Shown here piece after piece: positions 6,294 through 61,435 of a DNA stretch of 64,000 bases (position 1 is its first letter; each line of letters opens with the position of its first letter). The translations under genes and the position numbers were made by a program. A model generated the notes under the pieces. That model worked only from the letters and a program-made list of their open reading frames with translations. It was not told where the DNA came from and searched no databases. The DNA comes from Octopus vulgaris (lineage: Eukaryota), in contig OX597815.1 in NCBI GenBank assembly GCA_951406725.2, forward strand, positions 124,496,001 to 124,560,000, given 5' to 3'.

Positions 6294-6449
6294 GTTTTAT
6301 GTAAATATATATATATAAGTTCAGCAAAATTTAGATTCAAATGAATATGGTACTTAAGGTAGATGCACCAGAATTTTGAATGGTGTTATCCATATAAATC
6401 CATGGGGTGATTATAATCAAAATAAGCAACAAGAATAACTTTGGTAATT

Positions 6450-6533
6450 TGGTACGATCGTTTCGCACTACATCATTTTATTAAATGTTGCAAGCATTAC
6501 AACAATTTTAAAATACTGAGCACTCATCAGCCA
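6450..6533 (-). ncRNA. Type I hammerhead ribozyme (family 1, minus copy)
   Basis: Reverse complement of 6714-6797. Confidence 0.65.
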
Positions 6534-6713
6534 TTTATAGAGGTTTTCCATTAATACATAATTTTCATATCAAGTGATAAACCTTACATAAGAGGTAGAT
6601 ATATAGACAAAGATGTCTAAAATTTAAATCCACATCTTTGTCTATATATCTACCTTCTATGTAAGGTTATCACTTGATATGAAAATTATGTATTAATGGA
6701 AAACCTCTATAAA

Positions 6714-6797
6714 TGGCTGATGAGTGCTCAGTATTTTAAAATTGTTGTAATGCTTACAACATTTAATAAAATGATGTAGTGCGAAACGATCGTACCA
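6714..6797 (+). ncRNA. Type I hammerhead ribozyme with long stem II (family 1)
   Basis: TGG-CTGATGA-[59-nt hairpin GTGCT...AGTGC]-GAA-ACGATCGT-A-CCA; palindromic stem III, GUA site, 3-bp stem I. Confidence 0.65.
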
Positions 6798-6830
6798 AAT
6801 TACCAAAGTTATTCTTGTTGCTTATTTTGA

Positions 6831-6883
<53 letters not shown>

Positions 6884-11013: not shown

Positions 11014-11155
11014 TTATTTACATTTGACGGATATTTCTCCTCATCTTGTTTGCTGTTAACACAACATTTCGGCTGATATACTCTGCAGCCTTCATCAGGT
11101 GTCTTGGGGAAATTTCGAACCTGGTTTCTCATTCCTAAGGTATTTTTCAATGTTA
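11014..11155 (-). mobile_element. HH family 2 unit; hammerhead at 11058-11103 has mutated stem III
   Basis: Near-identical to 20095-20240 and the reverse complement of 22575-22715; a + strand 3' fragment lies at 11605-11670. Confidence 0.75.
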
Positions 11156-11162
11156 TTATTAT

Positions 11163-11228: not shown

Positions 11229-12978
11229 ATTATGGAGTGACTTTTAGGGCTTATATATCTTATATTTTCCTATCCTTCCTTAATACCGGTTCTCATATGC
11301 TACTCATATCTGCACTCGGTCTGCTTAGGAGGTTATTATGTCCTAGCATATGTGCTGCTTCTTTTATTTTTCGTTTTTTCCAATGGTGTTCTCTGTTTAT
11401 TATTTCACCTTCATCCTACAGGAAACTTAATGGAAATGTTGATCTTCTGTGTAGAAACTACCTACTTCAGAATGGACACTGATATATATCGACAGAGAGG
11501 GGTTAGCTATGAGTTCGCCATTGTCACTGATAATAGCCAGTATGTACAAGGAATACTTTGAGAATTTGGCTTTAGGATCAACACCACTAATACCAACAAT
11601 TTTGTGAGGACAAATATCCGTCAAATGTAAATAATATTAATAATGTACATAATTCCTCACCTCTCAAAATATTGTCTTGGGTCTCCTTGACATTTTGGGC
11701 GACTAAAGTCTTGTAAATGAGATTCGGTAGATGGAAAGTATAGATGCTCTCATTTGATGGTTTTTACTTGTAATTCAATGTTACAGCCTTATCACACTGG
11801 ATCGGTTACCCTGTTAATACTTGAGAATTATGTTAATGATCCATGTACTTGCGGAATGTTTCGCCATTTACAAGGTTATTCAATCGATGAAGTTTCCAAT
11901 GATTGAACAACGGAATCGTTTTCGTAATACCGAAGGATATCCATTTTACTTTTCTATTTATATATAAAAACTACTTGTATGTGTGTCATTTCTTGCCAAT
12001 ACAGAAAGAGTCGGTTTCTAAACCTAGATCCAACACTCCTTCATTGGAATTTCAATATCAACAACGGGGTATTTTTGTATGTATGTATGTATGTATGTAT
12101 GTATGTATGTATGTATGTGTGTATGTATGTATGTATACGTGCAGATTTTTATGTTTTATTTTGTGTATGTCTTCTCACGCATATGCTTGCATATCTTGAC
12201 ATACGCATATATACTTAAACTGTATGTATGTATGCATGCATGCGTGAGTATGTATGAACGTATGTCTACCTCTCTCTCTTTTCTCTCCTCCTCTTTCTCT
12301 TCCACTCTCTCTCTTTCTCTTCCTCTCTCTCTCTCTCATACTCTTCCTCTTTTTCTCCCTCACACACACAACCGTGCAGTAGCACATACCGGTTACAGAA
12401 ACGTAGATTCCTGTAAAAGATTCCGAATTCTGTAACAGGAAACAGATAATTTCCAACTGAATGTATTTTTGGGGGAAAACAAACAAGTAGGACAAATACT
12501 TTTATGAATGACTATAACAATTTTTAAACACATATGACACAAGATGTATGTATGAGAGAAAAATGTTTGGAAGACAAATTCAATATGGAATTATTATAGT
12601 AGACAGAGTGTGGTAGACAGAGTGTGTAGTTTTACAAAAGGTGTCGACTGTTGTGTGATGGGATAGGAAGATGGTGCAATGCAATGGGGCTATAAGACAG
12701 ATACTATCCCTAGCCTTGTAAATCATCACGATTAGCATCTGCGTGATTGCTAGAGAATTAATCCGAAGTTGTTTGTCTATCACGGTGTACCGTATCTTTG
12801 TACTGCTTAGTGTAGAAATTAAACTCATTTTGAACTTCTCATGTATTTTTGATGTCATATTCATGATTAAAGTTATTAACAAAAGCCTAGAAGATTCTTC
12901 TTGTCGGCCTTGACACATTTCCTGTGTCCTTATATATTTATGAAGGGGAGACAAACACCCCCAACAGCTAGGCCTGCA

Positions 12979-13024
12979 TCTAGATACATGCATGTTTCAG
13001 GGTCTTGCCCATCATCAGTCTAGA
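12979..13024 (-). ncRNA. Type I hammerhead ribozyme (family 3, minus copy)
   Basis: Exact reverse complement of 13336-13381. Confidence 0.75.
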
Positions 13025-13335
13025 GTAGCAAGGCCTGCTAGCTGAAGATATTTGTCTAGACTTCGTAAATATATATATATATATATTTTCAGTGAAGTTT
13101 ATTCACTGATCACCAAAATCAGAAATATTAAATTTCAGAAATTTAATATTTCTGATTTTGGTGAGTGAATAAACTTCACTGAAAATATATATATATATTT
13201 ACGAAATCAGAAATATTAAATTTCTGAAATTTAATATTTCTGATTTTGGTGATCAGTGAATAAACTTCACTGAAAATATATATATATATATTTACGAAGT
13301 CTAGACAAATATCTTCAGCTAGCAGGCCTTGCTAC

Positions 13336-13381
13336 TCTAGACTGATGATGGGCAAGACCCTGAAACATGCATGTATCTAGA
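13336..13381 (+). ncRNA. Type I hammerhead ribozyme (family 3)
   Basis: TCTAGA-CTGATGA-T-GGG-CAAGAC-CCT-GAA-ACATGCATGT-A-TCTAGA: 6-bp stem I, stem II, 10-nt palindromic stem III, GUA site. Confidence 0.75.
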
Positions 13382-15899
13382 TGCAGGCCTAGCTGTTGGG
13401 GGTGTTTGTCTCCCCTTCGTAAATATATAAAGACACAGGAAATGTGTCAAGGCCGATAGGAAGCGTCGATGCTTCCTAGGGCTAAATAGCGGTGGTGTAA
13501 TTCCCTTACGGGACTGTCACGTTAAGTTGACAGTATACAACCACTCTATCGCTCCACCACCGCATATATCTCTATGAGATATTTAGAAATTTAATATTTC
13601 TGATCCTAGTAGATTTTTTTCTATAAATGCCAATCACTAGACATATACTTTGCAGTCAATTAAAGTGGAGTGGGTGGGACCTTATATCCCCTTCTTGGCT
13701 TGCAGTTTACGTTTGTTCTAACGGCATCAGTTTTCCATAGAGAAAAAAACTTTCTCTGTGGAACTCGACCACATCATCTACAAGACATCTTCAAATCTTA
13801 CATTATTTTTCAGTGTCATATCTTGCCGAACTAATTGATAAAATCTAGTCAAAAATGTTTAAAATTACCTTTGCTGAGTGTTACACTCCATTCCTTGGCT
13901 CGGCAATATTATCCATAATACCTATAGTGGTCAATTTTTACAATAGTTTCGAACTTTATTTCCTGTGGCGTAAACTCAACACTAGACTTAAAATGTTTCA
14001 AAGATCGTCTGATGCGTCTTGCAAGAATAAATTCTGTCGGTAACATGAAACTAAATTTCTACAAGTGTACCATTTCAAAAGTCCCAAAGCTTTCAACAGC
14101 TGTGCTAGGCTTAATCTAACTGATTTGGTGTTCAAATAAAGGCCAAAATAATTACGATCCTTTTCCAAGACTGATTTAAAATCTGTTGGTTGCGTTTTTG
14201 AGTTGTTTCACGTTCTTAGTAACATCGCATTGAAGTTAGCTATTCCGCTTAAATTCATTGGCTGAATTAAATAAATTGTGTGTTCTTGTGAATGAATTCT
14301 ATTCTTATATTTTAAGAAAAATCATTTAAGTTTATTGGGTGGATTAGTGTATTGTCTAAACGTAGCACTGCATTGTTGATAATATTACATATCGCACTAA
14401 ACATTTGTCTGTACAGAAGGGTAAGATTAGCTGCAACAAACGTACTTAGAGAAAGAAATTAAGTGTTCTTAAAATTGTAGCTTGCTCAGGTGTTAAGCCG
14501 CTTTCAGCTCCCTGGAGTAATTAAAAATTGACAGCTTTACCGGTCGTTTTAATGTGCCTCTTAAAACTTCCAAATAATTCTTTAATACCCAAAGGGCTTT
14601 ATACTAGAATTTGCAACTCCCCTTTCTAGTTGTATCAACTTTTAGCTTTTACTTGAATGACCATCGTGTTTATCGGCTTCTTACATTCAATCGTAGATCC
14701 ATGCTCAGAAACATTTACGTATTAAGCATCATATCAGATTTATTAAAAAATATGATACACATGCAATTATCGTTGTAAATGTTTGAGTTCTTGACCTAAT
14801 ATTCTCTATTTTGTTGCGTATTGTTTTTGATACTTTTCTAATGTGGCTGGATTTTTCTACGCTGGAATCCATTGTAAAACATCAAGTTTAACGTCTTACG
14901 TGATACCTCTACGACCCCTGTTTTCACTGCTGCTTCCACTTCCACTTGATGGCATCTTTCTATAAGAGTTTGGGACTAAATTCAGTTGCGAGTGGAGACA
15001 GGCAAAAAGTAAAACCCCAAAAGTAAAAACACTAGGATCTAAGAGATGTTCTGAGTTGTAAAAAAACAATAACTTTATTGCTTGGTATGCAATAACGAAA
15101 AAGGAAGGATTGGAGGTGTGATATCAAAATGAATGAAATGGTAATATGTGGGTGGAAATTCTGTGCCCACAAAAAGGTGGAAGAACGGACAAAGAAGCAT
15201 TGGAAATAATACTGAAAGCATTAAAAAACAAGGTCATTTGAACTGGTGCATGTGCAAACAGGATGGAGGCTGAACAAGGAAAGAATATTAAGAGTAATGA
15301 AAAGAAATTCTTGCAGAAGAAAAATGATCTAAATAATTGAATTGGTTGGCTGCAAGCAAAAAGAATTTACAGAGATTGAATAAATAAATCTAATGAGAGG
15401 AGTGGCAGGGCGTATTAAAGTGTCAACCCAATTTTATTTTATAACTGAGTAAGTGTTTATACGTAAATATGTTTCGGGATTTTAGTTTTCAAGTTTCCCT
15501 AAGGGTGAAAAAAGAGGTCGTACTCAAAATTTTGTGTTTATAAATTAGAATTTTCGTAAGTGCAGGATTTCTTAACCGGAGGTTTTGTAAAGTGGGTTAC
15601 AGCCCTGCACGTGTAGTTATATAATACAGTCCACTATCACTCGCAAGTGAATATCTCTCCCTAGCATATACTATACTTTTATTTTTGCGGGTAGAATCAG
15701 GCACTCTCTCCGTCTCTTAACCCTTGCCGTAGCAAAATATCTTGGACATCATAGCTGGAGGTAGAGAGTGCTGCACCAGTACTCTGACTAGTACTCAGTT
15801 ACAGATAGATTAACTAGAACGACATGAAATGGAGTCTTGCTCAAGGACACAATACACTATCCGATCCAGGATTCGAACAAATGATGATACAATCATATA

Positions 15900-19060: not shown

Positions 19061-20094
19061 CAAATGTAGTCTTGGAAGGATGCATGATGAGCGTTATTTG
19101 TAATTCAATAGTACAACAGTGTAAGAGTTTGCTTTGAGGTATACTTAGATTGTGATTTCTGCAATGTTGTGCATAAATTGTCAAGTAAAGGAGAAGCATC
19201 TTTGCCTCCACTGGTTCAGTCGCAAAGTGTTATTTTGAGTAAAGTTATTTGGTTGCAGACCTCATTTGAGTATTTTTATTATCACTGGGTCAGAGATAGT
19301 CCCCAGATGGTAAACATTGATTTCAAGGCTTTTCCAGGTATGTGATTGGTCATTCAAAGAGATTTATAGATTGTAAATTTATTCTGTTCAGTTACTTATT
19401 GGCAAAGTGATCATTGGCAAACTCCAGAGGTTACACTTTCATTTCCCCTTAGCCCTCACGTCACACAGTTGTTAATGTTTATTTGAGTTGGGTCACGCCC
19501 TTCCAATTGTTATAGATCCGTAATGCATCTTACGGCTGTGCCGGTTACCTGTATGGTGAGAAATCCTACATTGGGGAGTGGTAACGGCTAGGGTAGGGAA
19601 AGCTGACTGCTTATTGTGATCATTCGTCTTTTGGTTTCCTGTAGCTTTCATTCATATATTTCTGATTTCAAAGGAGTTTGAAGAATAGATCCAAGTTAAA
19701 AAAGATTTCCAACAATTCAACTTCTCTGGTTGACTTTAAGACCTCTCTAATAGGGGCCTTAACTCCCATATTTTAGAGCTCCACGTGCTCTATTATATAT
19801 ATATAATGAGGTAAAAATAGAAAGGGAGAGATATACGATGCAAATCCAATATCAAAATGTCCTCTTTGCTTGTTTAGAAGCTCTTTTACTATCATTCAAA
19901 CCAAAGATTATTTCTGTATGGTATTATGGACGTCCCAGTTTCCAGAGAATTGCAGCTGTCCTCCCAGAAATATATTTACACATCCAATATAGATTTTCAG
20001 GAGCTCTTCATATATCCTGGATATCCGATTATATTCTCCATATCGCACATCTGGTCCATTTTAAAATAGTGCAGCTATTTACGTTATTTTAATA

Positions 20095-20240
20095 TTTACA
20101 TTACTTACATTTGACGGATATTTGTCCTCATATTGTTTGTTGTTAACACAACGTTTCGGCTGATATACCCTCCAGTCTTCATCAGGTATCTTGGGGAAAT
20201 TTCGAACCTGGGTTCTCATTCCTAAGGTATTTTTCGATGT
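20095..20240 (-). mobile_element. HH family 2 unit (hammerhead 20145-20190)
   Basis: Inverted partner of 22575-22747. Confidence 0.75.
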
Positions 20241-20265
20241 TGACAACAACATCGAAAAATACTTA

Positions 20266-20455: not shown

Positions 20456-20456
<1 letters not shown>

Positions 20457-22435
20457 TGGCCTGGATTGACTACAAAAAGGCGTTTGATAGCATCCCCCAC
20501 ACATGGATCCTCGAAACACTAGCCATTAACAAAGTAGCACCAACAATCATAAAATTCATAGAGTACTCTATGAATAAATGGCAAACAGTCCTACACCTCC
20601 AAACAAAAGAGGGACTCATGAAAACCAAAGACATCCCCATTAGAAGAGGAATATTCCAGGGAGACACGCTCTCTCCACTCCTTTTCTGCATGGCACTGTC
20701 ACCTCTATCTGATATGCTAAATAGAACTGGATGCGGATATAAATGTTACGGCAAAACGATCAGCCACCTTTTATATATGGATGACCTAAAACTATACGCT
20801 GCAAATGACAAACAGCTGGAAACACTATTAAAGACAGTTCATGGATTTACCAAAGAAATAGATATGAAATTTGGATTAGAAAAATGCGCCAAAGTAACCA
20901 TGAAAAGAGGAAAACTAGTTAAGAGTAACAACATCATACTAGATAAAACCAATGAAATAAAAGAATTAGACCAAAGCCAAACTTACAAATACTTAGGAAT
21001 CCATGAACTAGATAAGACACAACACACACAAATGAAAGAGAAAATAAAAAAAGGAATATTATAGACGAGTTAGATCAATACTAAACACAGAGCTCAATGC
21101 TAAAAACAAGATAATAGGTATCAACACTTTAGCTGTCCCAGTTATAAGTTACAGCTACAATATCCTTAACTGGACACGAAATGAACTGACCAAAATAGAT
21201 AGGAAAACAAGAAAAATAATGACAGGATCTAGGATGCATCACCCAAAATCTGACATAGAAAGACTATATATACAACGTATAAAAGGTGGTAGAGGCCTTA
21301 TACAGCTGGAAAACTACTATAAAATAACCACCATAGGACTGCAAAAATATCTACTTCAGAAGGAAGGAAAACTGATCCAGATAGCGGCAAAACACGAGCA
21401 AAACAAAAAACTGTTCTCAGTATTTAAGGAAGCTGACAAATACAAACAAGAAATCATACCACCTAATAAACATGAAGAAGAAGAAGAAGATGAAGAAACA
21501 ACAAAAGCTATAAAACAAATGAAATCCAAACTAAAAATAGAACAGCAACGAACCATGATAAAACGATGGCAAGAAAAGCCCATTCATGGTAAATACTGGA
21601 CTAAACTAAACGCAAAAGAAATAGACAAAGAAAAATCCCAGCAATGGTTGAGAAGCTCAGGACTCAAAGCAGAAACAGAGGGATTTTTAATTGCAGCACA
21701 AGACCAAAGCCTCCCCACCAGAAATTGCCCAAAACATTTAATGAAAAGAAATATTACAAGTAACTGCAGAATATGTGGAGATGGACAAGAAACAATAAAT
21801 CATATTATCTCTAGCTGCCCAGTCCTGGCTAAGAAAGAATATATTCACAGACATGACAGAGTTGGAACCTACATACATTGGAAGCTATGCCAACATTATG
21901 GAATAACAACAGAAAAAAGATGGTATAGGCACACACCAGAAAAGGTCACAGAAAACGAGAAAGCAACCATACTCTGGGATATGCCGATACACACAGATAG
22001 AGAAATTAAGGCCAACAGACCAGATATAGTTGTCAGAGACCATGAAGAAAAAAAAATGCTTTCTAATTGATGTATCAATACCGGCTGATGACAACGTGTC
22101 TCTAAAAGAAATGGAGAAACTCTCAAAATACAAAGACCTGGAAATAGAGGTAACTAGAATGTGGAATCTGAAAACAGAAACAATTCCTATCATAGTAGGT
22201 GCATTAGGCATGATAAAAAAATATTCAGACAAATACTTAACAAAAACACCCGGACTTACAAACACATATAACATACAGAAAATTGCACTACTAGGCACTG
22301 CACACATCCTATGCAGAACACTTTCCATACAATAACCATCAGAGCATCACAACAACTCACAGCACATACCCAAGGCACACAGAGCTGTGCTCGGTAGTGA
22401 AGTGAAAGCACGCTATAAAAATAAAACTACTGAAT
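20456..22435 (+). mobile_element. 5'-truncated Dong/R4-clade non-LTR retrotransposon (RT, CCHC finger, restriction-like endonuclease)
   Basis: WIDYKKAFDSI, RGIFQGDTLSPLLF, HLLYMDDLKL, YKYLG; CRIC..ETINHIISSC..RHD; RPDIV..IDVSIP..EKLSKY; stop at 22335, about 100-nt 3' UTR, (TAA)n on both sides; two +1 shifts in A runs. Confidence 0.92.
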
Positions 22436-22563: not shown

Positions 22564-22574
22564 TAATAACAACA

Positions 22575-22747
22575 ACGAAAAATACTTTAGGAATGAGAAA
22601 TCAGGTTCGAACTTTCCCCAAGACACCTGATGAAGGCTGGAGGGTATATCAGCTGAAACGTTGTGTTAACAACAAACAAGATGAAGACTACTATCAGTCA
22701 AATGTAAATAATGTACATAATTCCTCATCTCTTAAATATAGAACTGT
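22575..22747 (+). mobile_element. HH family 2 unit
   Basis: Follows (TAA)n; matches the copies at 11014 and 20095 in the opposite orientation. Confidence 0.75.
22622..22667 (+). ncRNA. Minimal type I hammerhead ribozyme (family 2)
   Basis: GACAC-CTGATGA-A-GGCTG-loop-CAGCT-GAAACGTT-GTGTT; stem III reduced to palindrome AACGTT, GUU site. Confidence 0.6.
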
Positions 22748-24734: not shown

Positions 24735-24997
24735 AGGTACCTGTACTAATGAATGAAGTGTGAGAAAAGAAGTTTTAAAATGGTTGTTGTATTTATATGC
24801 AGGTATGAGTTTATATATATATATATATATAACGTAAAGTATAGTAGCCATCAATATGGCTAACCACTAGGGGTGGGTGCTACTGTAGCTTTTAGCCCCA
24901 GGAGATCATCGTCTCCAGCTGGCTTTAGGCACACTATCTGTGCCCTCATGGTATTTGCAAAGGTAGGTCATCCCTCTCTCGTAAGCCTAAGTGATTC

Positions 24998-25040
24998 GCA
25001 CGGACTGCAGTTTCGAGGTGTTTGCCTCTTGTCAACGCAC
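24998..25040 (-). ncRNA. Type I hammerhead, U3:A8 core variant (family 4)
   Basis: Minus: GTGCG-TTGACAA-GAGG-CAAACA-CCTC-GAA-ACTGCAGT-C-CGTGC. Confidence 0.75.
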
Positions 25041-25405
25041 GGTAATCACCGGTTTACGATGAAAAGGAAGACCTGTTTGCAAATACTTATGGGTTTTTCT
25101 AGTAACTACTGTCACTGATTTCGAAATACTGTCTGCAAGCAATAATAAATCTCTGAACGAGATGTACACAGTAACCGCTTGACAACGTAAAGTATACTAG
25201 CCATCAATATGGCTAACCACTAAGGGTGGGTGTTACTGTAGCTTTTAGCCCCAGGAGATCATTGTCTGTTACATCTGTTACATCTCGTTCAGAGATTTAT
25301 TATTGCTTGCAGACAGTTTTTTCGAAATCAGTGACAGTAGTTACTAGAAAAACCCATAAGTATTTGCAAACAGGTCTTCCTTTTCATCGTAAACAGGTGA
25401 TTACC

Positions 25406-25448
25406 GTGCGTTGACAAGAGGCAAACACCTCGAAACTGCAGTCCATGC
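25406..25448 (+). ncRNA. Type I hammerhead, U3:A8 core variant (family 4, plus copy)
   Basis: Same motif; one stem I mismatch (CATGC). Confidence 0.7.
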
Positions 25449-25704
25449 GTATCACTTAGGCTTACGAAAGAGGGATGACCGCCCTTTGCAAATGCCATAA
25501 GGGCACATATAGTGTGCCTAAAGCCACCTGGAGACGATGATCTCCTGGAGCTATAAGCGACAGTAACACCCACCCTTAGTGGTTAGCCATATTGATGGCT
25601 AGTACACTTTACGTTGTCAAGCGGTTATTGTTTACATCTCGTTCAGAGATTTATTATTTATATATATATATATATAAGTGACCAAAGTGTACGTACGCAG
25701 TTAT

Positions 25705-28379: not shown

Positions 28380-29590
28380 CACAACTTGCTCTTGTTTTTT
28401 TTCTGTGGAAAGTTTACAATGCCATGATACTCAATTGTATCCAGCCGGAGATCGCAAAAATCCTTGTGCGAGTAACCTGAAAGCAATCCTCCTATTTGCT
28501 GACTTTTCTAGGGCCTTTGGCTCGATACACAGAAGAAAAACTGGAAGATATACTTCATGCATATAGTACCCTAAAGGAAACTATTAATTCCATCATGATG
28601 TTGTATAGAAATACCCAGTCTATACTCATCATCCAGATGGTGATACAGTTTTTTGACATAGCGGCTGGTATCCCCCAGGGTGGCATCTTGGCACCCTACC
28701 TGTTCATTATATGTAAAGATTATGTTCTACGTACCTATGTAGATGAAACGAAAGATAAAGGATTCACTCTTCAACCAACCAAAAGCAGACGTTTTCCAGC
28801 TGTGACTAGTACAGATGCTGACTACCCTGATGACTTGGCGCTACTATCAGTAAAAATTTGTGATACAAAGTCTCCCCTGAACAGCATTGAAACTGCTGCT
28901 AAAGGTGTTGGTCTCTACATCAACTCGGACGTGACAGAATATATATATGATGCACATGCCAGAGCGGCAACCTTAACTCCGCATCTGGAAAATCCTTGAA
29001 AAATTTTGGCGAATTCACATACTGCGGAAGTAAAAGCGCAAAGGAAGATCTGTCTACAAGTGACGTTCATGTCTGAATCGGCAAAGCCTGGGCAGCTTTA
29101 CATAAATTATCGACAGTCTGGAAATCTAAGCTGCCATTAAATTTGAAACGTAATTTCTTTCAGGTAGTTTTGCTGTCAGTTCTGCTATAAGGTTGTACAA
29201 CATGAACTCGAAACAATGTGTCTTGAAAAGAAAATTAACGGAACTTATACAAGAATGCTTCGAGCTGCTCTAGGCATCTGGAGGTAACACCCTACAAAAG
29301 AACATCTGTATGGTAATTTACCGGTAATATCACACTTCATAAGAGAAAAAGACAAAATTTGATGGACATTGCTGAGGAGCTATGGGGGAGATCATCAGTG
29401 ACGTTCTTCTTTAGGAGCCGAAATATAGTTATACAAATAATGGTCGACGTCATCGAACCTAAATAAAACAATTGTGCGAGGATTCCAAGTGCACCCAAGA
29501 AGACATACCACGTGCAATAGCAGACCGAATAGACTGGAAAGAACGAGTCACGACAATCCGTGCAATAAGCATGAGCCAAACTGATGACAG
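28380..29590 (+). pseudogene. Decayed RTE-group (RTEX-like) LINE reverse transcriptase and 3' end
   Basis: GIPQGGILAPYLFII..DYVLR..SRRFPA..DADYPDDLALLS..GLYIN; downstream FTYCGS, IGKAWAA, NGTYTRMLR. Confidence 0.8.
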
Positions 29591-32329: not shown

Positions 32330-32637
32330 TATTCAGTAGTTTTATTTTTATTTTTATAGCGTGCTTTCACTTCACTACCGAGCGCAGCTCTGTGTGCCTT
32401 GGGTATGTGCTGTGATTTGTTGTGATGCTCTGATGGTTATTGTATGGAAAGTGTTCTGCGTAGGATGTGTGCAGTGCCTAGTAGTGCAATTTTCTGTATG
32501 TTATATGTGTTTGTAAGTCCTGGTGTTTTTGTTATGTATTTGTCTGAATATTTTTTTATCATGCCTAATGCACCTACTATGATAGGAATTGTTTCTGTTT
32601 TCAGATTCCACATTCTAGTTACCTCTATTTCCAGGTC

Positions 32638-32638
<1 letters not shown>
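32330..32638 (-). mobile_element. Short 5'-truncated copy of the Dong/R4 element
   Basis: Near-identical to 22134-22435; (TAT)n on both sides. Confidence 0.9.
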
Positions 32639-32735
<97 letters not shown>

Positions 32736-33288: not shown

Positions 33289-33315
33289 ATCATCATCATC
33301 ATCATTATTGTTATT

Positions 33316-33951
33316 GAGGCGGCGAGCTGGCAGAAACGTTACCGCGCCGGCCAAAATGTTTTGTGGCCTTTCGTTCGTCTTTACATTCTGAGTTCAAATT
33401 CCGCCGACATCAATTTCGTCTTTCATCATTTCGAGGTCGATGAAATAAGAACCACTTACAAACTGGTGTCGGACTGCCGCCTTCCCCAAATTTCAGGATT
33501 TGTGCCTATAGTAGAAAGGATTATTATTATTATTGAGGCGGCGAGCCGGCAGAATCGTTAGCATGTCTGGCAAAATGCTTAGCAGTATTTCGTCTGCCGT
33601 TACGTTCTTAGTTCAAATTCCGCCGCGGTGAACTTTGCCTTTCATCCTTTCGGGGTCGATAAATTAAGTATAAGTTACGCACTGGGGTCGATATAATCGA
33701 CTTAATCCATCTGTCTGTCCTTGTTTGTCTCCTCTGTGTTTAGCACCTTGTGGGTAGTAAAGAAATGGGTATTTCGTCTGCCGCTACGTTCTGAGTTCAA
33801 ATTCCGCCGAGGTCGACTTTGCTTTTCATCCTTTCGAGGTCGATAAATTAGGTATCAATGGGGTCAAAGTGATAGACTAGTCCCTTACTCCATAATTTCA
33901 AGCCTTGTTCCAGTAGTAGAAAGGGTTATTATTATTATTCATACTATTAAT

Positions 33952-37781: not shown

Positions 37782-38014
37782 ATAATAGTTATCGCCATAC
37801 TAATATGGCATTCTAATAAAAATAAGAATAAAGCTGTCCGCTTATTAGCTCCATGAGGCCATCGCCTTAAGTTAGCTATTTGATACACAAACTGTATCCA
37901 TATAACCTTCGAACAAATAGCTAACTTAAGGCGATGGCCTCATGGAGCTAATAAGCGGACAGCTTTATTCTTATTTTTATAAGAATGCCATATTAGTATG
38001 GCGATAACTATTAT
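37782..38014. repeat. Near-perfect inverted repeat, 101-bp arms, 31-nt spacer
   Basis: 37782-37882 versus 37914-38014; (TA)n tracts nearby on both sides. Confidence 0.9.
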
Positions 38015-39030: not shown

Positions 39031-39242
39031 ATATATATATATATCTTAATCTGAGTTTGGAGGGATATATTATTCAGGCGGATACCGTGGTAGCTCTCAG
39101 TTATGTTCCAGGTTACTGCTAACCGCATCGATTAGTATTCAACATTTATGTCTACTATGTGTTGCCACTCACGCTGTAAAGATTCTTTGATGGGTAATTC
39201 CGTGTTCGCTTCACTGGAAGGTAATAGTATCTGGAGTGCATA

Positions 39243-39656
39243 TTAGCAATAATTGGCACGATAGAGAATATGGAGACTGGTACATCCTCAAAGTTTATTT
39301 CCTTTTATTTTACATTACATACACCAGTTTTTATGGTTAGAACGACCTACTCGAGTTTCCATTGTACAGAGTAGGGGCAGTTGCACAAGTAATCGGGCAC
39401 AATATTCTGTGCAGCTTCGTTCAGGGTTATTCAACAAGCTTGGTTCGAAGCAGACCTAGTTTGTTGAAAGACCCTGAACGAAGCTGCACAGAATATTATG
39501 CCCAGCCTCACGTGCAACTAACCTTACTTTGTGCAGTGGAACATTGTGTAGCTCGCCATAACCATTAAAATATGCTGTATGGAATGTAAAATAAAAGGAA
39601 ATAAATTTTGAGGATGTACCAGTTTTCATATTCTCTATGGTCATAAGTATTGCTAA
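39243..39656. repeat. Long imperfect hairpin (about 205-bp arms, almost no loop)
   Basis: Arms align nearly without gaps; perfect blocks alternate with mismatch clusters. Confidence 0.9.
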
Positions 39657-40591
39657 AATATTTACATATGAAGTCCTCAGAAAGCCAAAGAGGTCTCCGT
39701 AGGAGCTAAAGATAGATGTAGATCAAATATTGTAGTTGCATTTTACAGAACTTTACTCTTAGCAAAGAGACTTCTCCTACGCTAATTCAATAGCTCATCT
39801 GAAACAGGAATGTCTCTGCTGGAAGTCAAATAGAAGTTATTGCAACTGAGTTACATTACATACACATGCGATGGGAAATGCTTTAAGCATGAAGTAGGCT
39901 AGAGACATTAATTTGATATGTCTCGGAATTCATATCTTTTTCAAATAACTTTAATCCTAGTTTATCTGCAGTAAAGTTCTTTAGCGAATACTGGGATCGA
40001 TATATCATAAGTACTTTTCTAAATACTATACGAACAAGATTTCTCTATTGTGGTCAACGAAAGACTTCAATGAATACAAGCCTAAGATAATATACTTTAT
40101 ATTATGTTTTACAGAATGGTAGTCTAATTCAAGGTCCAGGCTAAATACACTTGAATTAATGCCCATTTCAACTTAATAACCAGACCTCATGCTTATCGTA
40201 ATTTATCGTCAAATATAGGAATTAAGTAGCAGACTTTTTAACCACACATGCACACACGCACTCACACTGCCACGCGCGAGTGCACACACATATGTAAACA
40301 TATATACACATATATAAACATATATACATTTACATGTATGTGTTTGAAATTTGACACAGGAAACCATTAATAAAAGTAAATATGTCATGTGACTACATGT
40401 TTGAGTGAGCGTGTATATCTATGTATGTGTGTAATCTAATCAAATATAAGAATATGCACTCAAAATACTAGGAAATATTAATATTTTAAAAATATTAATT
40501 TATCCTAGACACTTGTATGTTTCTGATATTTCTTTTCTTCATCAGCAAAGGAAAGAACATCATTTGGTATGAGTCTTCTCTTTCTCTCTCT

Positions 40592-49444: not shown

Positions 49445-50724
49445 TTAGGCTGTCAAGAAAGTTCTTGCGGTTTTTAACCTTTAAATTCAGGTGCACATAT
49501 CTCGGTTCACGCAAAACTTTATTAATCGAAATAAACACCATCAGAATCAACACACTTTTACCAACGCGAAACAAAGTTTATTTATACCAATAGCGTAAAA
49601 ATCTTGCGTTCTGGTGGCGATAGAGTCGTTGAAGGCGTGTTTTGCATTGTCTTGGTTTTTGATGCATTTCTCATGCAGGAAGTTGGCGAGATGCTTTAAA
49701 AAGTGGTAGTTGGTAGGCGAGAGGTCTGGTGAGTATGTCGGATGAGGCAGAGTTTCGTAGCCCAATTCGTTCAACTTCTGCAGGGTCAGTTGTGTGACGT
49801 GCGGCCGAGCGTTGTTGTGGAGAAGAATTGGTCCTTTTCTATTGACCAATGCTGGCTGTTGTTGCCGGAGTTTGTTATACATTTCATCCATTTGCTGACG
49901 GTACTTCTCCGCCGTAATGGTTTCGCCTGGATCCAAAAAGCTGTGATGGATGAGACCGTCCGCAGACCACCAAACAGTCACCATGATCTTCTTTTGGTGC
50001 AACTTTGGCATCGGGAAGTGCTGTGGAGCCTCGTCGGCGTCCAACTACTGAACTGAGCGTCGCCGGTTGTTGTAAAGAATCCACTTTTCCTTGCAAGTGA
50101 CAATCCGGTCGAGAAACGGGTCGTTCTTGTTGCGTATAAGAAGGGAAGACGACACTTGAAATCGGCGTTTTTGGGGTTGTTGTTCAATTCGTGCGTCACC
50201 CATTTCTCAAGTATTTTTGTTTTTCCACTCTCTTTCAAGTGGTTGGAAGTTGTCGTATACGTTACGTCTAATCCAGAAGTAAGCTTTCGAACAGTTGTGC
50301 ATGGATTGGTTTCGGCTAAGGCTCTTAGTTGATCGCTGTCAACATCCGATGGCCGACCACTACGCTTATCATCTTCAAGACTCTCGTCACCGCTACGAAA
50401 TTTCTTGAACCACCATTGTGCTGTACGTTCATCAGTAGTTCCTGGGACAAACGCATCGTTGATATCACGAGGTGTTTCAGCATGTTTTTGGCCTAGCTTG
50501 AACTGGAATAAGAAAATTGTGCGAATTTGCTTTTTGTCCATGTTGTATTCAACGTTCCGGATAAAATGGCCTAATTATTCAAAAAGAAAAAAGAGTAACA
50601 CGATTAGATAGAGCGAAAGATGGGCTATAAAATAATATATACATTTAAAGTAATTTAACGAAAATCAATTTGAAAATACATCATTTAAAACCAAAATTCC
50701 GCAAGAACTTTCTTGACAACCTAA
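49445..50724 (-). mobile_element. Full-length mariner (cecropia/Hsmar1-like), 1280 bp
   Basis: TIRs TTAGGCTGTCAAGAAAGTTCTTGCGG / CCGCAAGAACTTTCTTGACAACCTAA, TA duplication on both sides. Confidence 0.95.
49522..50541 (-). pseudogene. Mariner transposase pseudogene
   Basis: MDKKQIRTIFLFQFKLG..QWWFKKFRSGDESLED..WVTHEL..YSPDLSPT; frameshifts near 50170 and 49575 and internal stops. Confidence 0.92.
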
Positions 50725-55284: not shown

Positions 55285-55895
55285 ATTTTGTCACAAGGCC
55301 AGTAACTGTAGATGACAAGGTTTAGCCGATTGCAGTGCCTGTAGTACTTGATTGATACATTATTTGATCGATCCCAAAATGACGAAAGGCAAAGCTGACA
55401 TCGGCGGAATTTAAACTCAGAGCTTAAAGAGAGAGAATAAATGCTGCTACCGATTCACTCACGCAGTGGGATTGCTTTTAATCGAAGGTATATTTGAATT
55501 AAGTTGACCTAGACTAAGCAGTATCCACATCAGTACAACAATGGTGACAACAGCTGTACAAAAAGGATACTAGATTGAGCCAAATTAAAAATTAAATTTA
55601 CTTGGTTATATCAGTTGACTCTGTTGATTTTTTTTAAAGAACTGCTTCTCAGCATTTCGGGGTCGATAAAATAACGACCATTTCAGCACTGACGTTGATG
55701 TAATCGACTTAACCCCACCCCATAAATTGCTGGCCTTGTTCCCGAAATTTGAAACCAATACAATACAAACATTAAGGTGGCGAGCTGGCAGAATCTTTAA
55801 CATACCGGGCAAAATGAAAATGCTTATCGGCATTTCGTCAGTCTTTATGTTCTGAGTTCAAATTCTGCCGAGGTGACTTTCTCCTTCATTCTCCC
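55285..55895. mobile_element. SINE family B copies (minus 55285-55450; plus 55650-55895)
   Basis: Matches the 33316 cluster. Confidence 0.7.
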
Positions 55896-60649: not shown

Positions 60650-61435
60650 AATAACGGTTTCTAATTTTATTAAAGATCAGCAGTATAAGTATTAAGGATA
60701 ATGAGTAGTCGATTAAATCAGATCATGTCTTGTATTTTAATCTACCAATTCTGGAAGGATGAAAGGTGAAGTTGACCTCAGTGAGACTTGAACTCAGAAC
60801 ATAAAGACCCGGAAGAAATAGGACAAAGCATATTGTCCGACGCTGTAACAGTTCTTCCAGCAAAACGCTATTCATAATAAAGGCTTTTTATTTAAGGACG
60901 AGGACAGCAATTTCGAGATAAGTGAGTTAGTTGATTGTATCAACCACAATACTTGACTGGTATTTTATCAATCCCGAAAGATGAAAGGCAAATTTAATGT
61001 CGAAGGTATTTGATCAAAAGAAAAAAAAGGAGGCGGAACAAATATTGCAAGGTATGTTTCCCATGCTCAAATGATTCTGTCAACTCACCACCCTAATAAT
61101 CATACTTTCTTCCGGAGAAGTAACAGTCAACTAATTCCAACTCAGCTTTATTTTATCACTCCCGGAAAAAAAACAAAACATGAAAAGCTAAATTAAATTT
61201 CGGCGGATTTGAATTCAGAACATAAAAAAATAGTAGCAAATGCCGCACGGATTTTTTTTCCAATCCTCTAACGATTTTTCAAATCCACCGTCTTTGTCTA
61301 ACATAGCTACAATGCTAAAAATTCGAGGAAGTGGGTTACTCACTTAAATAGACCTAAGTGATTGAAGACTACTTATTCCATTCACTGAGAAAAATGAAAA
61401 GTTAAGCCGACTCAGCAGAATTTGAACGCAGATTG
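60650..61435 (-). mobile_element. Four tandem decayed SINE family B copies
   Basis: GATGAAAGG..AA..TGAC.TC..GA.TTGAACTCAGAAC recurs about every 200 bp. Confidence 0.65.

What the first reader, a model, noticed from the sequence alone, without database searches (positions are those of the whole stretch)
12897..13604. Nested foldback with identical hammerheads and a 360-nt terminally redundant monomer
The two 46-nt ribozymes are exact reverse complements, implying a recent event. Stem I (TCTAGA) and stem III (ACATGCATGT) are both palindromic, which suits dimer pairing. The centre has repeated fold-backs of CAGTGAAGTTTATTCACTG and ATCAGAAATATTAAATTTC, a template-switching signature. The 19-mer at 13226 recurs at 13586, as expected if reverse transcription ran just over once around a circle (inference).
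Basis: partly seen in the sequence, partly recalled or inferred. Interest (0 to 1): 0.72.

Follow-up and report, generated by a model that had tools for sequence, protein, structure and literature searches.

The report
Penelope-style insertion of hammerhead retrozyme
This mirror-image repeat is real and is one copy of an abundant, non-coding jumping element carrying a predicted self-cutting hammerhead RNA, laid down in the head-to-head layout already described for Penelope-like retrotransposons; copying from an RNA circle is possible but not shown.

Summary
In detail: identical 46-nt type I hammerhead motifs on opposite strands, a nested fold-back and a 19-mer recurring 360 nt apart. The unit is a very abundant non-coding repeat (summed contig depth 1e5-1e6 against 38-66 in the flank) with preferred 3' ends and depth falling towards 5', not randomly permuted ends. 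Inverted 5' arm, one-sided tail, 8-10-bp TSD, 5' palindrome and opposite-strand hammerheads 100-700 bp apart are all published Penelope-like features. Three of the four other long fold-backs in this window carry hammerhead-like motifs too. Best reading: a non-LTR retrozyme, likely pasted by Penelope machinery. Public contigs support both outer junctions; the centre was not testable. Cleavage, expression and circles are unshown, and the two ribozymes cannot dimerise in one transcript. Earlier notes of this scan report the same class repeatedly in this genome and others. New member of a known kind.

The parts
12886..12896 (+). Left copy of 11-bp target-site duplication
   Evidence: 10/11 identical to 13605-13615 at boundaries fixed beforehand by arm alignment and 19-mer end; 4 of 3000 random pairs score as well
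12897..13136 (-). Inverted arm: reverse complement of unit positions 1-238 (unit M starts at 13226), (AT)9
   Evidence: left junction in contigs of 3 of 4 runs, 35/29/30 arm letters
12979..13024 (-). Type I hammerhead motif, inverted copy
   Evidence: identical to 13336-13381
13137..13205 (+). Middle piece: A plus unit positions 1-73 with a 3-nt deletion and (AT)7
13204..13205 (.). 2-nt microhomology (AA) at the central join: unit positions 72-73 and inverted 21-20
13206..13244 (.). 39-bp palindrome (inverted positions 1-19, T, positions 1-19); its reverse complement is 13118-13156
13226..13585 (+). 360-nt non-coding unit M: 41% GC, longest ATG ORF 30 aa, long rod with the hammerhead at its tip, (AT)8 at 13276-13291
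13336..13381 (+). Type I hammerhead motif: 6-bp stem I, CUGAUGA, 3-bp stem II over a U.U mismatch, GAAA, palindromic helix III; predicted cut after 13375 (GUA here, GUC in most family depth)
   Evidence: sequence; variants; cleavage untested
13586..13604 (+). 19-nt terminal redundancy (unit positions 1-19 again) at the family's preferred 3' end; the optional tail may be the longer 13550-13604
   Evidence: depth drop and loose ends at 13549 and 13601
13605..13615 (+). Right copy of the target-site duplication
   Evidence: flank contigs with 27 element letters in 3 of 4 runs

Best explanation
12897-13604 is a head-to-head arrangement of a highly repeated, non-coding 360-nt hammerhead-bearing unit between two near-identical 11-bp flanks, likely a single insertion of a non-LTR retrozyme pasted in by a borrowed Penelope-like RT/endonuclease. 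Inferred steps: the enzyme nicked both strands 11 nt apart and primed cDNA from both ends. One cDNA began at the family's preferred 3' start and copied one unit plus 19 nt; the other began at unit position 238. Both stopped at unit position 1, where a palindrome would let the cDNA end fold back and self-prime. One fold-back ran to position 73 with slippage errors (3-nt deletion, shorter (AT)n), the other to position 19-21, and the two ends were joined through 2 nt of microhomology. My split for the centre: 5' palindrome inherited from the source copy plus new self-primed extension 0.45; made wholly anew (one cDNA folding twice, or end-to-end jumps) 0.35; wholly inherited from a parent fold-back 0.2. 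Neither end lies at the predicted ribozyme cut (position 150), so the template was likely an uncleaved or tandem linear transcript (0.65) or a circle (0.35), not a cut linear monomer.
For: TSD at fixed boundaries. Summed contig depth 1.6e5-1.2e6 over 13392-13607 in X1, X2, X4 against 38-66 in the unique flank; sharp fall after 13607; 3e3-1.6e4 at 13296-13319; same gradient in all 4 runs. Loose ends with mixed AT-rich continuations at 13601 (32 contigs, X2) and (AT)n continuations at 13549 (30 in X1, 33 in X4): two preferred 3' ends about 52-55 nt apart, as for the two RT starts that define the PLE tail (PMC11167929). One contig each in X1 and X4 continues past 13601 with a 9/10 match to unit positions 17-26 (table 5c), so the head-to-tail 360-nt period is likely native to the family. 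No ORF over 30 aa. Family variants at 13361 (restores the stem II closing pair), 13359 and 13371 (wobble) and 13375 (GUC) fit the fold. Published PLE anatomy: inverted pLTR, tail at one end, 8-10-bp TSD, 18- and 38-bp 5' palindromes, microhomology joins, self-priming proposed (PMC3846280); opposite-strand HHRs 100-700 bp apart (PMC4209133); mussel retrozymes of 350-390 bp and an axolotl HHR with U.U at the base of helix II (PMC7229834). PAc cleaves and extends both strands in vitro. A second insertion with the same anatomy and a 353-nt period lies at 24831-25658.
Against: No locus with two same-sense hammerheads of this family was seen: no genome is held and the window has no other copy. No Penelope ORF among the 9 ORF-like stretches scanned, so the partner enzyme is inferred. 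The active hammerhead fold (-5.8) is not the monomer MFE (-8.4 kcal/mol), and no Rfam hammerhead model matched. That 6 listed family variants avoid 11 core positions is not significant (P = 0.17; 17 variant rows were hidden). A stem I variant (13338 T>C) has no partner change among the listed rows. The left arm starts at position 238, which is not a visible preferred end. The preferred ends come from the few loose-end rows shown (529 hidden) and from summed contig depth, which is no copy number. All 4 arm substitutions fall in the outer 45 nt (P about 0.001, window chosen afterwards), which the model does not explain without gene conversion or a template change.
Confidence: 0.75

Rival explanations
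1. Stub (pLTR plus tail) of an autonomous Penelope-like element; the 19-mer at the 5' end came from a template jump back to the RT start site, so 360 nt is not a true monomer.
For: 5' truncation, tail and inverted arm are typical of autonomous PLE stubs; only one same-sense hammerhead is present; the first 70 or so positions of the unit got no read cover.
Against: Other copies continue past the tail into unit positions 17-26 (table 5c and the 13601 loose ends); no ORF start follows the ribozyme, whereas PLE pLTRs contain the ORF start.
Confidence: 0.12
2. One reading: reverse transcription from random points on a covalent RNA circle, giving circularly permuted copies.
For: 360-nt period; ends away from the cleavage site; strong fold; retrozyme circles are shown in coral, mussel and axolotl.
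Against: Preferred 3' ends and a more than 10-fold 5'-3' depth gradient; both arms stop at the same position 1 rather than running on round the circle.
Confidence: 0.05
3. A MITE or foldback DNA transposon with 19-bp terminal inverted repeats (13206-13224 / 13586-13604), later rearranged as a palindrome.
For: The 19-mers are exact inverted repeats bounding 13206-13604 (pair I8).
Against: The duplication flanks 12897-13604, not 13206-13604; depth is strongly asymmetric; the hammerhead motif is typical of retroelements.
Confidence: 0.04
4. The nested centre is an assembly or library fold-back chimera.
For: The inner 88-nt repeat is perfect; the centre could not be covered; the one contig that meets the 31-letter bridging bar (X2, left junction) may come from the assembled sample.
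Against: Flank contigs of a second haplotype also run into the element at both ends (29-30 and 27 letters, below the bar); the arms carry different rare alleles, the three (AT)n tracts differ (9/7/8) and the middle piece has its own deletion; TSD; similar fold-backs nearby.
Confidence: 0.04

Closest known systems
Metazoan non-LTR retrozymes (Cervera & de la Pena 2020, PMC7229834; passages and Discussion read)
   Same: Non-coding unit of 360 nt (mussel 350-390), GC under 45%, type I hammerhead with palindromic helix III, U.U at the base of helix II as in axolotl HHR_Amex2, TSD longer than 4 bp, high copy number.
   Different: This locus is 1.05 units plus an inverted arm, not a same-sense tandem; transcription, cleavage and circles are unshown.
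EN+ Penelope-like insertions with inverted pLTR, tail and TSD (Arkhipova et al. 2013, PMC3846280; Craig et al. 2021, PMC8557442; passages read)
   Same: Head-to-head inverted 5' copy, tail at one end, TSD of similar size (8-10 bp there, 11 here), palindrome at the 5' end, TATATATA tract, microhomology join.
   Different: No RT-EN ORF; the centre is doubly folded, with both arms turning at the same nucleotide.
PAc (Poseidon, Anolis) in vitro mechanism (Frangieh et al. 2024, PMC11167929; parts 1-2 of 4 read)
   Same: Two internal RT starts define the tail, both strands are cut and extended, AT-rich targets, ribozyme cleavage not needed for insertion.
   Different: PAc is autonomous; nothing was assayed here.
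Retrozymes as non-autonomous PLE derivatives (Li, Clavereau & Pollet, bioRxiv 10.64898/2026.07.22.740005; part 1 of 5 and passages read)
   Same: States the PLE origin of animal retrozymes and describes solo monomers as common.
   Different: Their 'active' class needs two tandem units with HHRs, which this locus lacks; the one hit for 'inverted' in its text is in a reference title.

Membership tests
Type I hammerhead ribozyme | CUGANGA and GAAA core, UH cleavage site, three helices with stem I open | tested here: met
   Sequence 13336-13381; position 10.1-11.1 is U.U here, with A at 13361 in 37-63% of family depth in the three runs that cover it well
Type I hammerhead ribozyme | Match to an Rfam hammerhead model | tested here: not met
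   None at gathering score or at E<=10
Type I hammerhead ribozyme | Self-cleavage | not testable with these tools
   Predicted only; the dimer cofold gives the expected three-helix arrangement, the monomer MFE does not
Non-LTR retrozyme | Non-coding unit of about 150-450 nt, GC under 50%, with type I HHR | tested here: met
   360 nt, 41% GC, longest ORF 30 aa
Non-LTR retrozyme | Many genomic copies | tested here: met
   Summed contig depth thousands of times the unique flank; not a copy count
Non-LTR retrozyme | Same-sense tandem units with two or more HHRs | tested here: inconclusive
   Not at this locus; head-to-tail continuity to position 26 in one contig each of X1 and X4; genome not held
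Non-LTR retrozyme | Expressed as linear and circular monomer RNA | not testable with these tools
   Only contigs were available; they show neither strand nor circles
Non-LTR retrozyme | TSD longer than 4 bp when present | tested here: met
   11 bp, 1 mismatch
PLE-type insertion | Inverted 5' copy, head to head | tested here: met
PLE-type insertion | Fixed 3' ends with optional tail and 5' truncation | tested here: met
   Depth edge at 13604-13607, loose ends at 13549 and 13601, 5' fall in depth; contig-level evidence only
Autonomous PLE | RT plus GIY-YIG ORF | tested here: not met
   No ORF in the element
MITE / foldback DNA transposon | Paired intact termini directly flanked by the TSD, no polar truncation | tested here: not met
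   TSD lies outside the whole structure and depth is polar

The most novel reading that the evidence does not exclude
The locus is a frozen intermediate of retrozyme copying: a dimeric Penelope enzyme primed both target strands on one small hammerhead RNA circle, both cDNAs halted at the same hairpin, snapped back on themselves and were sealed by microhomology. If many copies of this family turn at this same nucleotide, it is a sequence-level readout of how Penelope-type head-to-head insertions and second strands are made, and from which RNA form.
Probability: 0.25. Interest if true: 0.5.

Novelty: new member of a known kind. Interest (0 to 1): 0.27.

Why it matters
As a class it is known: animal retrozymes and the inverted-arm, tail and TSD layout of Penelope-like insertions are in print, and this window holds several relatives. 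Its value is as a clean example linking a retrozyme-sized unit to Penelope insertion marks. With thousands of copies, the family could test two open points, circular versus linear template and how the inverted arm is primed, by simple endpoint and junction counts.

Tried and rejected
No whole genome is held, so no endpoint map of copies. Rfam: nothing at gathering score; the 52 weak matches are almost all generic hairpin or small-RNA models, all below their cut-offs. One exact degenerate-pattern scan of metagenome contigs: 0 matches. Sequencing runs: 20 of 24 listed rows hold the stretch or part of it, from 9 studies and 4 organism labels; no RNA holder listed. X13, only guessed to be RNA, had 495 contigs on the repeat and none on the flank; for so abundant a repeat this may be DNA and is not used as evidence of expression. 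The AT-rich centre was skipped as repeats in both read-laying runs (17, 18), so the central junctions and the head-to-tail junction at depth stay open. X5 did not cover the flank next to the left junction, so nothing is said of that run. No empty-site allele could be sought, as the flanks were laid separately. TSD search at the four other fold-backs: one sits in (TA)n, three gave none at my rough boundaries. No clear sequence similarity between this unit and the other hammerhead units in the window (local scores 17-30). In-cis dimerisation of the two ribozymes rejected. The scan's own index found no look-alike sequence and nothing near this place. Four paper searches (listings only for most hits) showed no description of this family; repeat libraries and paper supplements were not seen and may hold it.

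Full report
Setting. The window is about 35% GC and dense in microsatellites, with RT and mariner remnants, as in a repeat-rich animal genome. Earlier scan notes call the genome octopus-like; I did not test that. No whole genome is held.

Observation. All stated features are present. The 46-nt motif at 13336-13381 equals the reverse complement of 12979-13024, inside a 143-nt perfect match. The full arms align over 239 positions with 4 substitutions (13419, 13431, 13457, 13459) and one (AT) unit of difference. Taking M as the 360-nt unit from 13226, the top strand reads: 11-mer | inverted M238-1, A, M1-73 (3-nt deletion, (AT)7) | inverted M19-1, T, M1-360, M1-19 | 11-mer. The two turning points are reverse complements of each other, and the central join has a 2-nt microhomology (13204-13205). 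The flanking 11-mers match at 10 of 11 positions exactly at boundaries set by other criteria; 4 of 3000 random pairs at the same spacing score as well. This points to one insertion event for the whole 708 bp.

The ribozyme. The motif has a type I topology with 6-bp stem I, intact core, 3-bp stem II above a U.U mismatch, and a 10-nt palindromic helix III; the predicted cut follows 13375 (M150). Rfam does not detect it. The active fold is 2.6 kcal/mol above the monomer MFE, while two same-sense copies cofold into the dimer arrangement. This is the usual behaviour of metazoan type I motifs (PMC4209133, passages). The two copies here are antisense to each other, and in a fold of the whole locus each is fully paired with the other, so this locus cannot supply a dimer. 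In the family, most depth has C at 13375 (82% in X1, 99% in X2 and X4) and 37-63% has A at 13361, closing stem II. The avoidance of core positions by listed variants is not significant (P = 0.17). Cleavage is untested.

The family. Of 24 runs listed, 20 hold the stretch or part of it (9 studies, 4 organism labels). Laying four runs on 13200-13900 put 4183, 4244, 4036 and 495 contigs on it. Summed depth is 1.6e5-1.2e6 over 13392-13607 in X1, X2 and X4, 3e3-1.6e4 at 13296-13319, and 38-66 in the unique flank, with the edge at 13604-13607. The mirrored arm shows the same gradient in 4 of 4 runs. Depth is no copy number and part of the 5' fall may be subfamily divergence, but thousands of copies with 5' truncation and preferred 3' ends is the plain reading. 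Among the loose ends shown (529 hidden), mixed AT-rich continuations cluster at 13601 (32 contigs, X2) and (AT)n continuations at 13549 (30 in X1, 33 in X4). One contig each in X1 and X4 runs on from 13601 with a 9/10 match to M17-26, so M360 likely does lead into M1 in the family.

Is the locus real? Unique-flank contigs reach into the element on the right in 3 of 4 runs (27 element letters, below the tool's 31-letter bar) and on the left in 3 of 4 runs (35 letters in X2, 29 in X1, 30 in X8). Only X2 meets the bar, and X2 may be the assembled sample. X1 and X4 differ from the window at 6 of 323 letters on the right, so a second haplotype appears to hold the insertion too. The centre got no cover. 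Internal differences (rare alleles private to each arm at 12941, 13431 and 13457 against about 99% family majorities; (AT)n of 9/7/8; the deletion) argue against a chimera. The four substitutions cluster in the outer 45 nt (P about 0.001, post hoc), so the inner arms may have been homogenised or copied from one cDNA. Identical ribozymes therefore do not date the event by themselves.

Context. Self-BLAST finds five long fold-backs in the window. Three of the other four carry a hammerhead-like motif (6530/6717 as an opposite-strand pair, 25035, 39424, descriptor written after seeing them). 24831-25658 repeats the anatomy: head-to-head arms, 353-nt period, about 43 extra nt at one end, inserted in (TA)n.

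Mechanism. Shown: layout, TSD, high copy number, polar depth, no ORF. Inferred: a Penelope-type protein nicked both strands, primed two cDNAs (PAc cleaves and extends both strands, starts at two fixed internal sites, and does not need ribozyme cleavage; PMC11167929); both cDNAs stopped at M1, self-primed at the palindrome (as proposed in PMC3846280) and were joined by microhomology. The template spanned the cut site and the M360-M1 junction, so it was not a cut linear monomer. A tandem or uncleaved linear RNA and a circle both fit; I lean linear (0.65) because both arms stop at one nucleotide. Whether the M1 palindrome is inherited or newly made is open and testable.

Comparison. Works like: an EN+ Penelope-type insertion, with inverted copy, one-sided tail, TSD, 5' palindrome and opposite-strand hammerheads 100-700 bp apart (324 nt between cores here). 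Membership: it meets the size, GC, motif, copy-number and TSD features of non-LTR retrozymes (PMC7229834); tandem dimers are inconclusive and RNA circles untestable. It is not an autonomous PLE. The PLE origin of animal retrozymes is argued in a 2026 preprint. Four searches showed no paper on this family; PMC6962438 (passages) only counts 235 hammerhead hits in giant squid. Supplements and repeat libraries were not seen.

Earlier scan notes (unchecked AI notes) describe the same class several times in this genome and others. One pointed me to PMC3846280, which I read in passages. They are not counted as support.

Verdict. Real, one insertion, known kind. The doubly folded centre is a nice mechanistic trace but rests on one locus whose centre is unverified by reads. 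Interest 0.27.

Noticed in passing
window 24831-25658: Second retrozyme-like head-to-head insertion in (TA)n: 353-nt period, about 43-nt extension at one end, hammerhead-like motif with a U3-A8 core variant (25035, - strand); no clear similarity to the finding's unit.
   Followed up: partly
window 6412-6835: 204-bp inverted arms (4 mismatches, 15-nt spacer), each with a hammerhead-like motif with a 59-nt stem II region; ends at (TA)n.
   Followed up: partly
window 39240-39659 and 37782-38014: Older fold-back (34 mismatches in 203) with a decayed hammerhead-like motif at 39424(-); short fold-back (101-bp arms, 1 mismatch) with no motif found.
   Followed up: partly
window 11014-11162, 20093-20242, 22570-22719: Three copies (89-92% alike) of another hammerhead-bearing repeat; the 20093 and 22570 copies are head to head around (TTA)n/(TAA)n tracts.
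   Followed up: no
window 20456-22430: 5'-truncated, frameshifted non-LTR retrotransposon (RVT_1 E 3e-21, zf-RVT below cut-off) between (TAA)n tracts, inside the inverted hammerhead pair; its 3' end recurs at 32358-32645 (97.6%).
   Followed up: partly
window 49550-50574 (-) and 28481-28996 (+): Broken mariner-type transposase (HTH_48, Transposase_1) and an RT fragment.
   Followed up: no
window 38330 (+): Isolated minimal hammerhead-like motif with palindromic helix III.
   Followed up: no
window 13084-13109 (+): On the antisense side of the unit the (TA)n tract is followed about 20 nt later by TCACT, like the TATA-Inr spacing noted for a rotifer pLTR; motif-level only.
   Followed up: no
window 33301-33939, 55351-55892, 60755-60861: Diverged tandem-like repeat with about 219-nt spacing and dispersed copies.
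   Followed up: no
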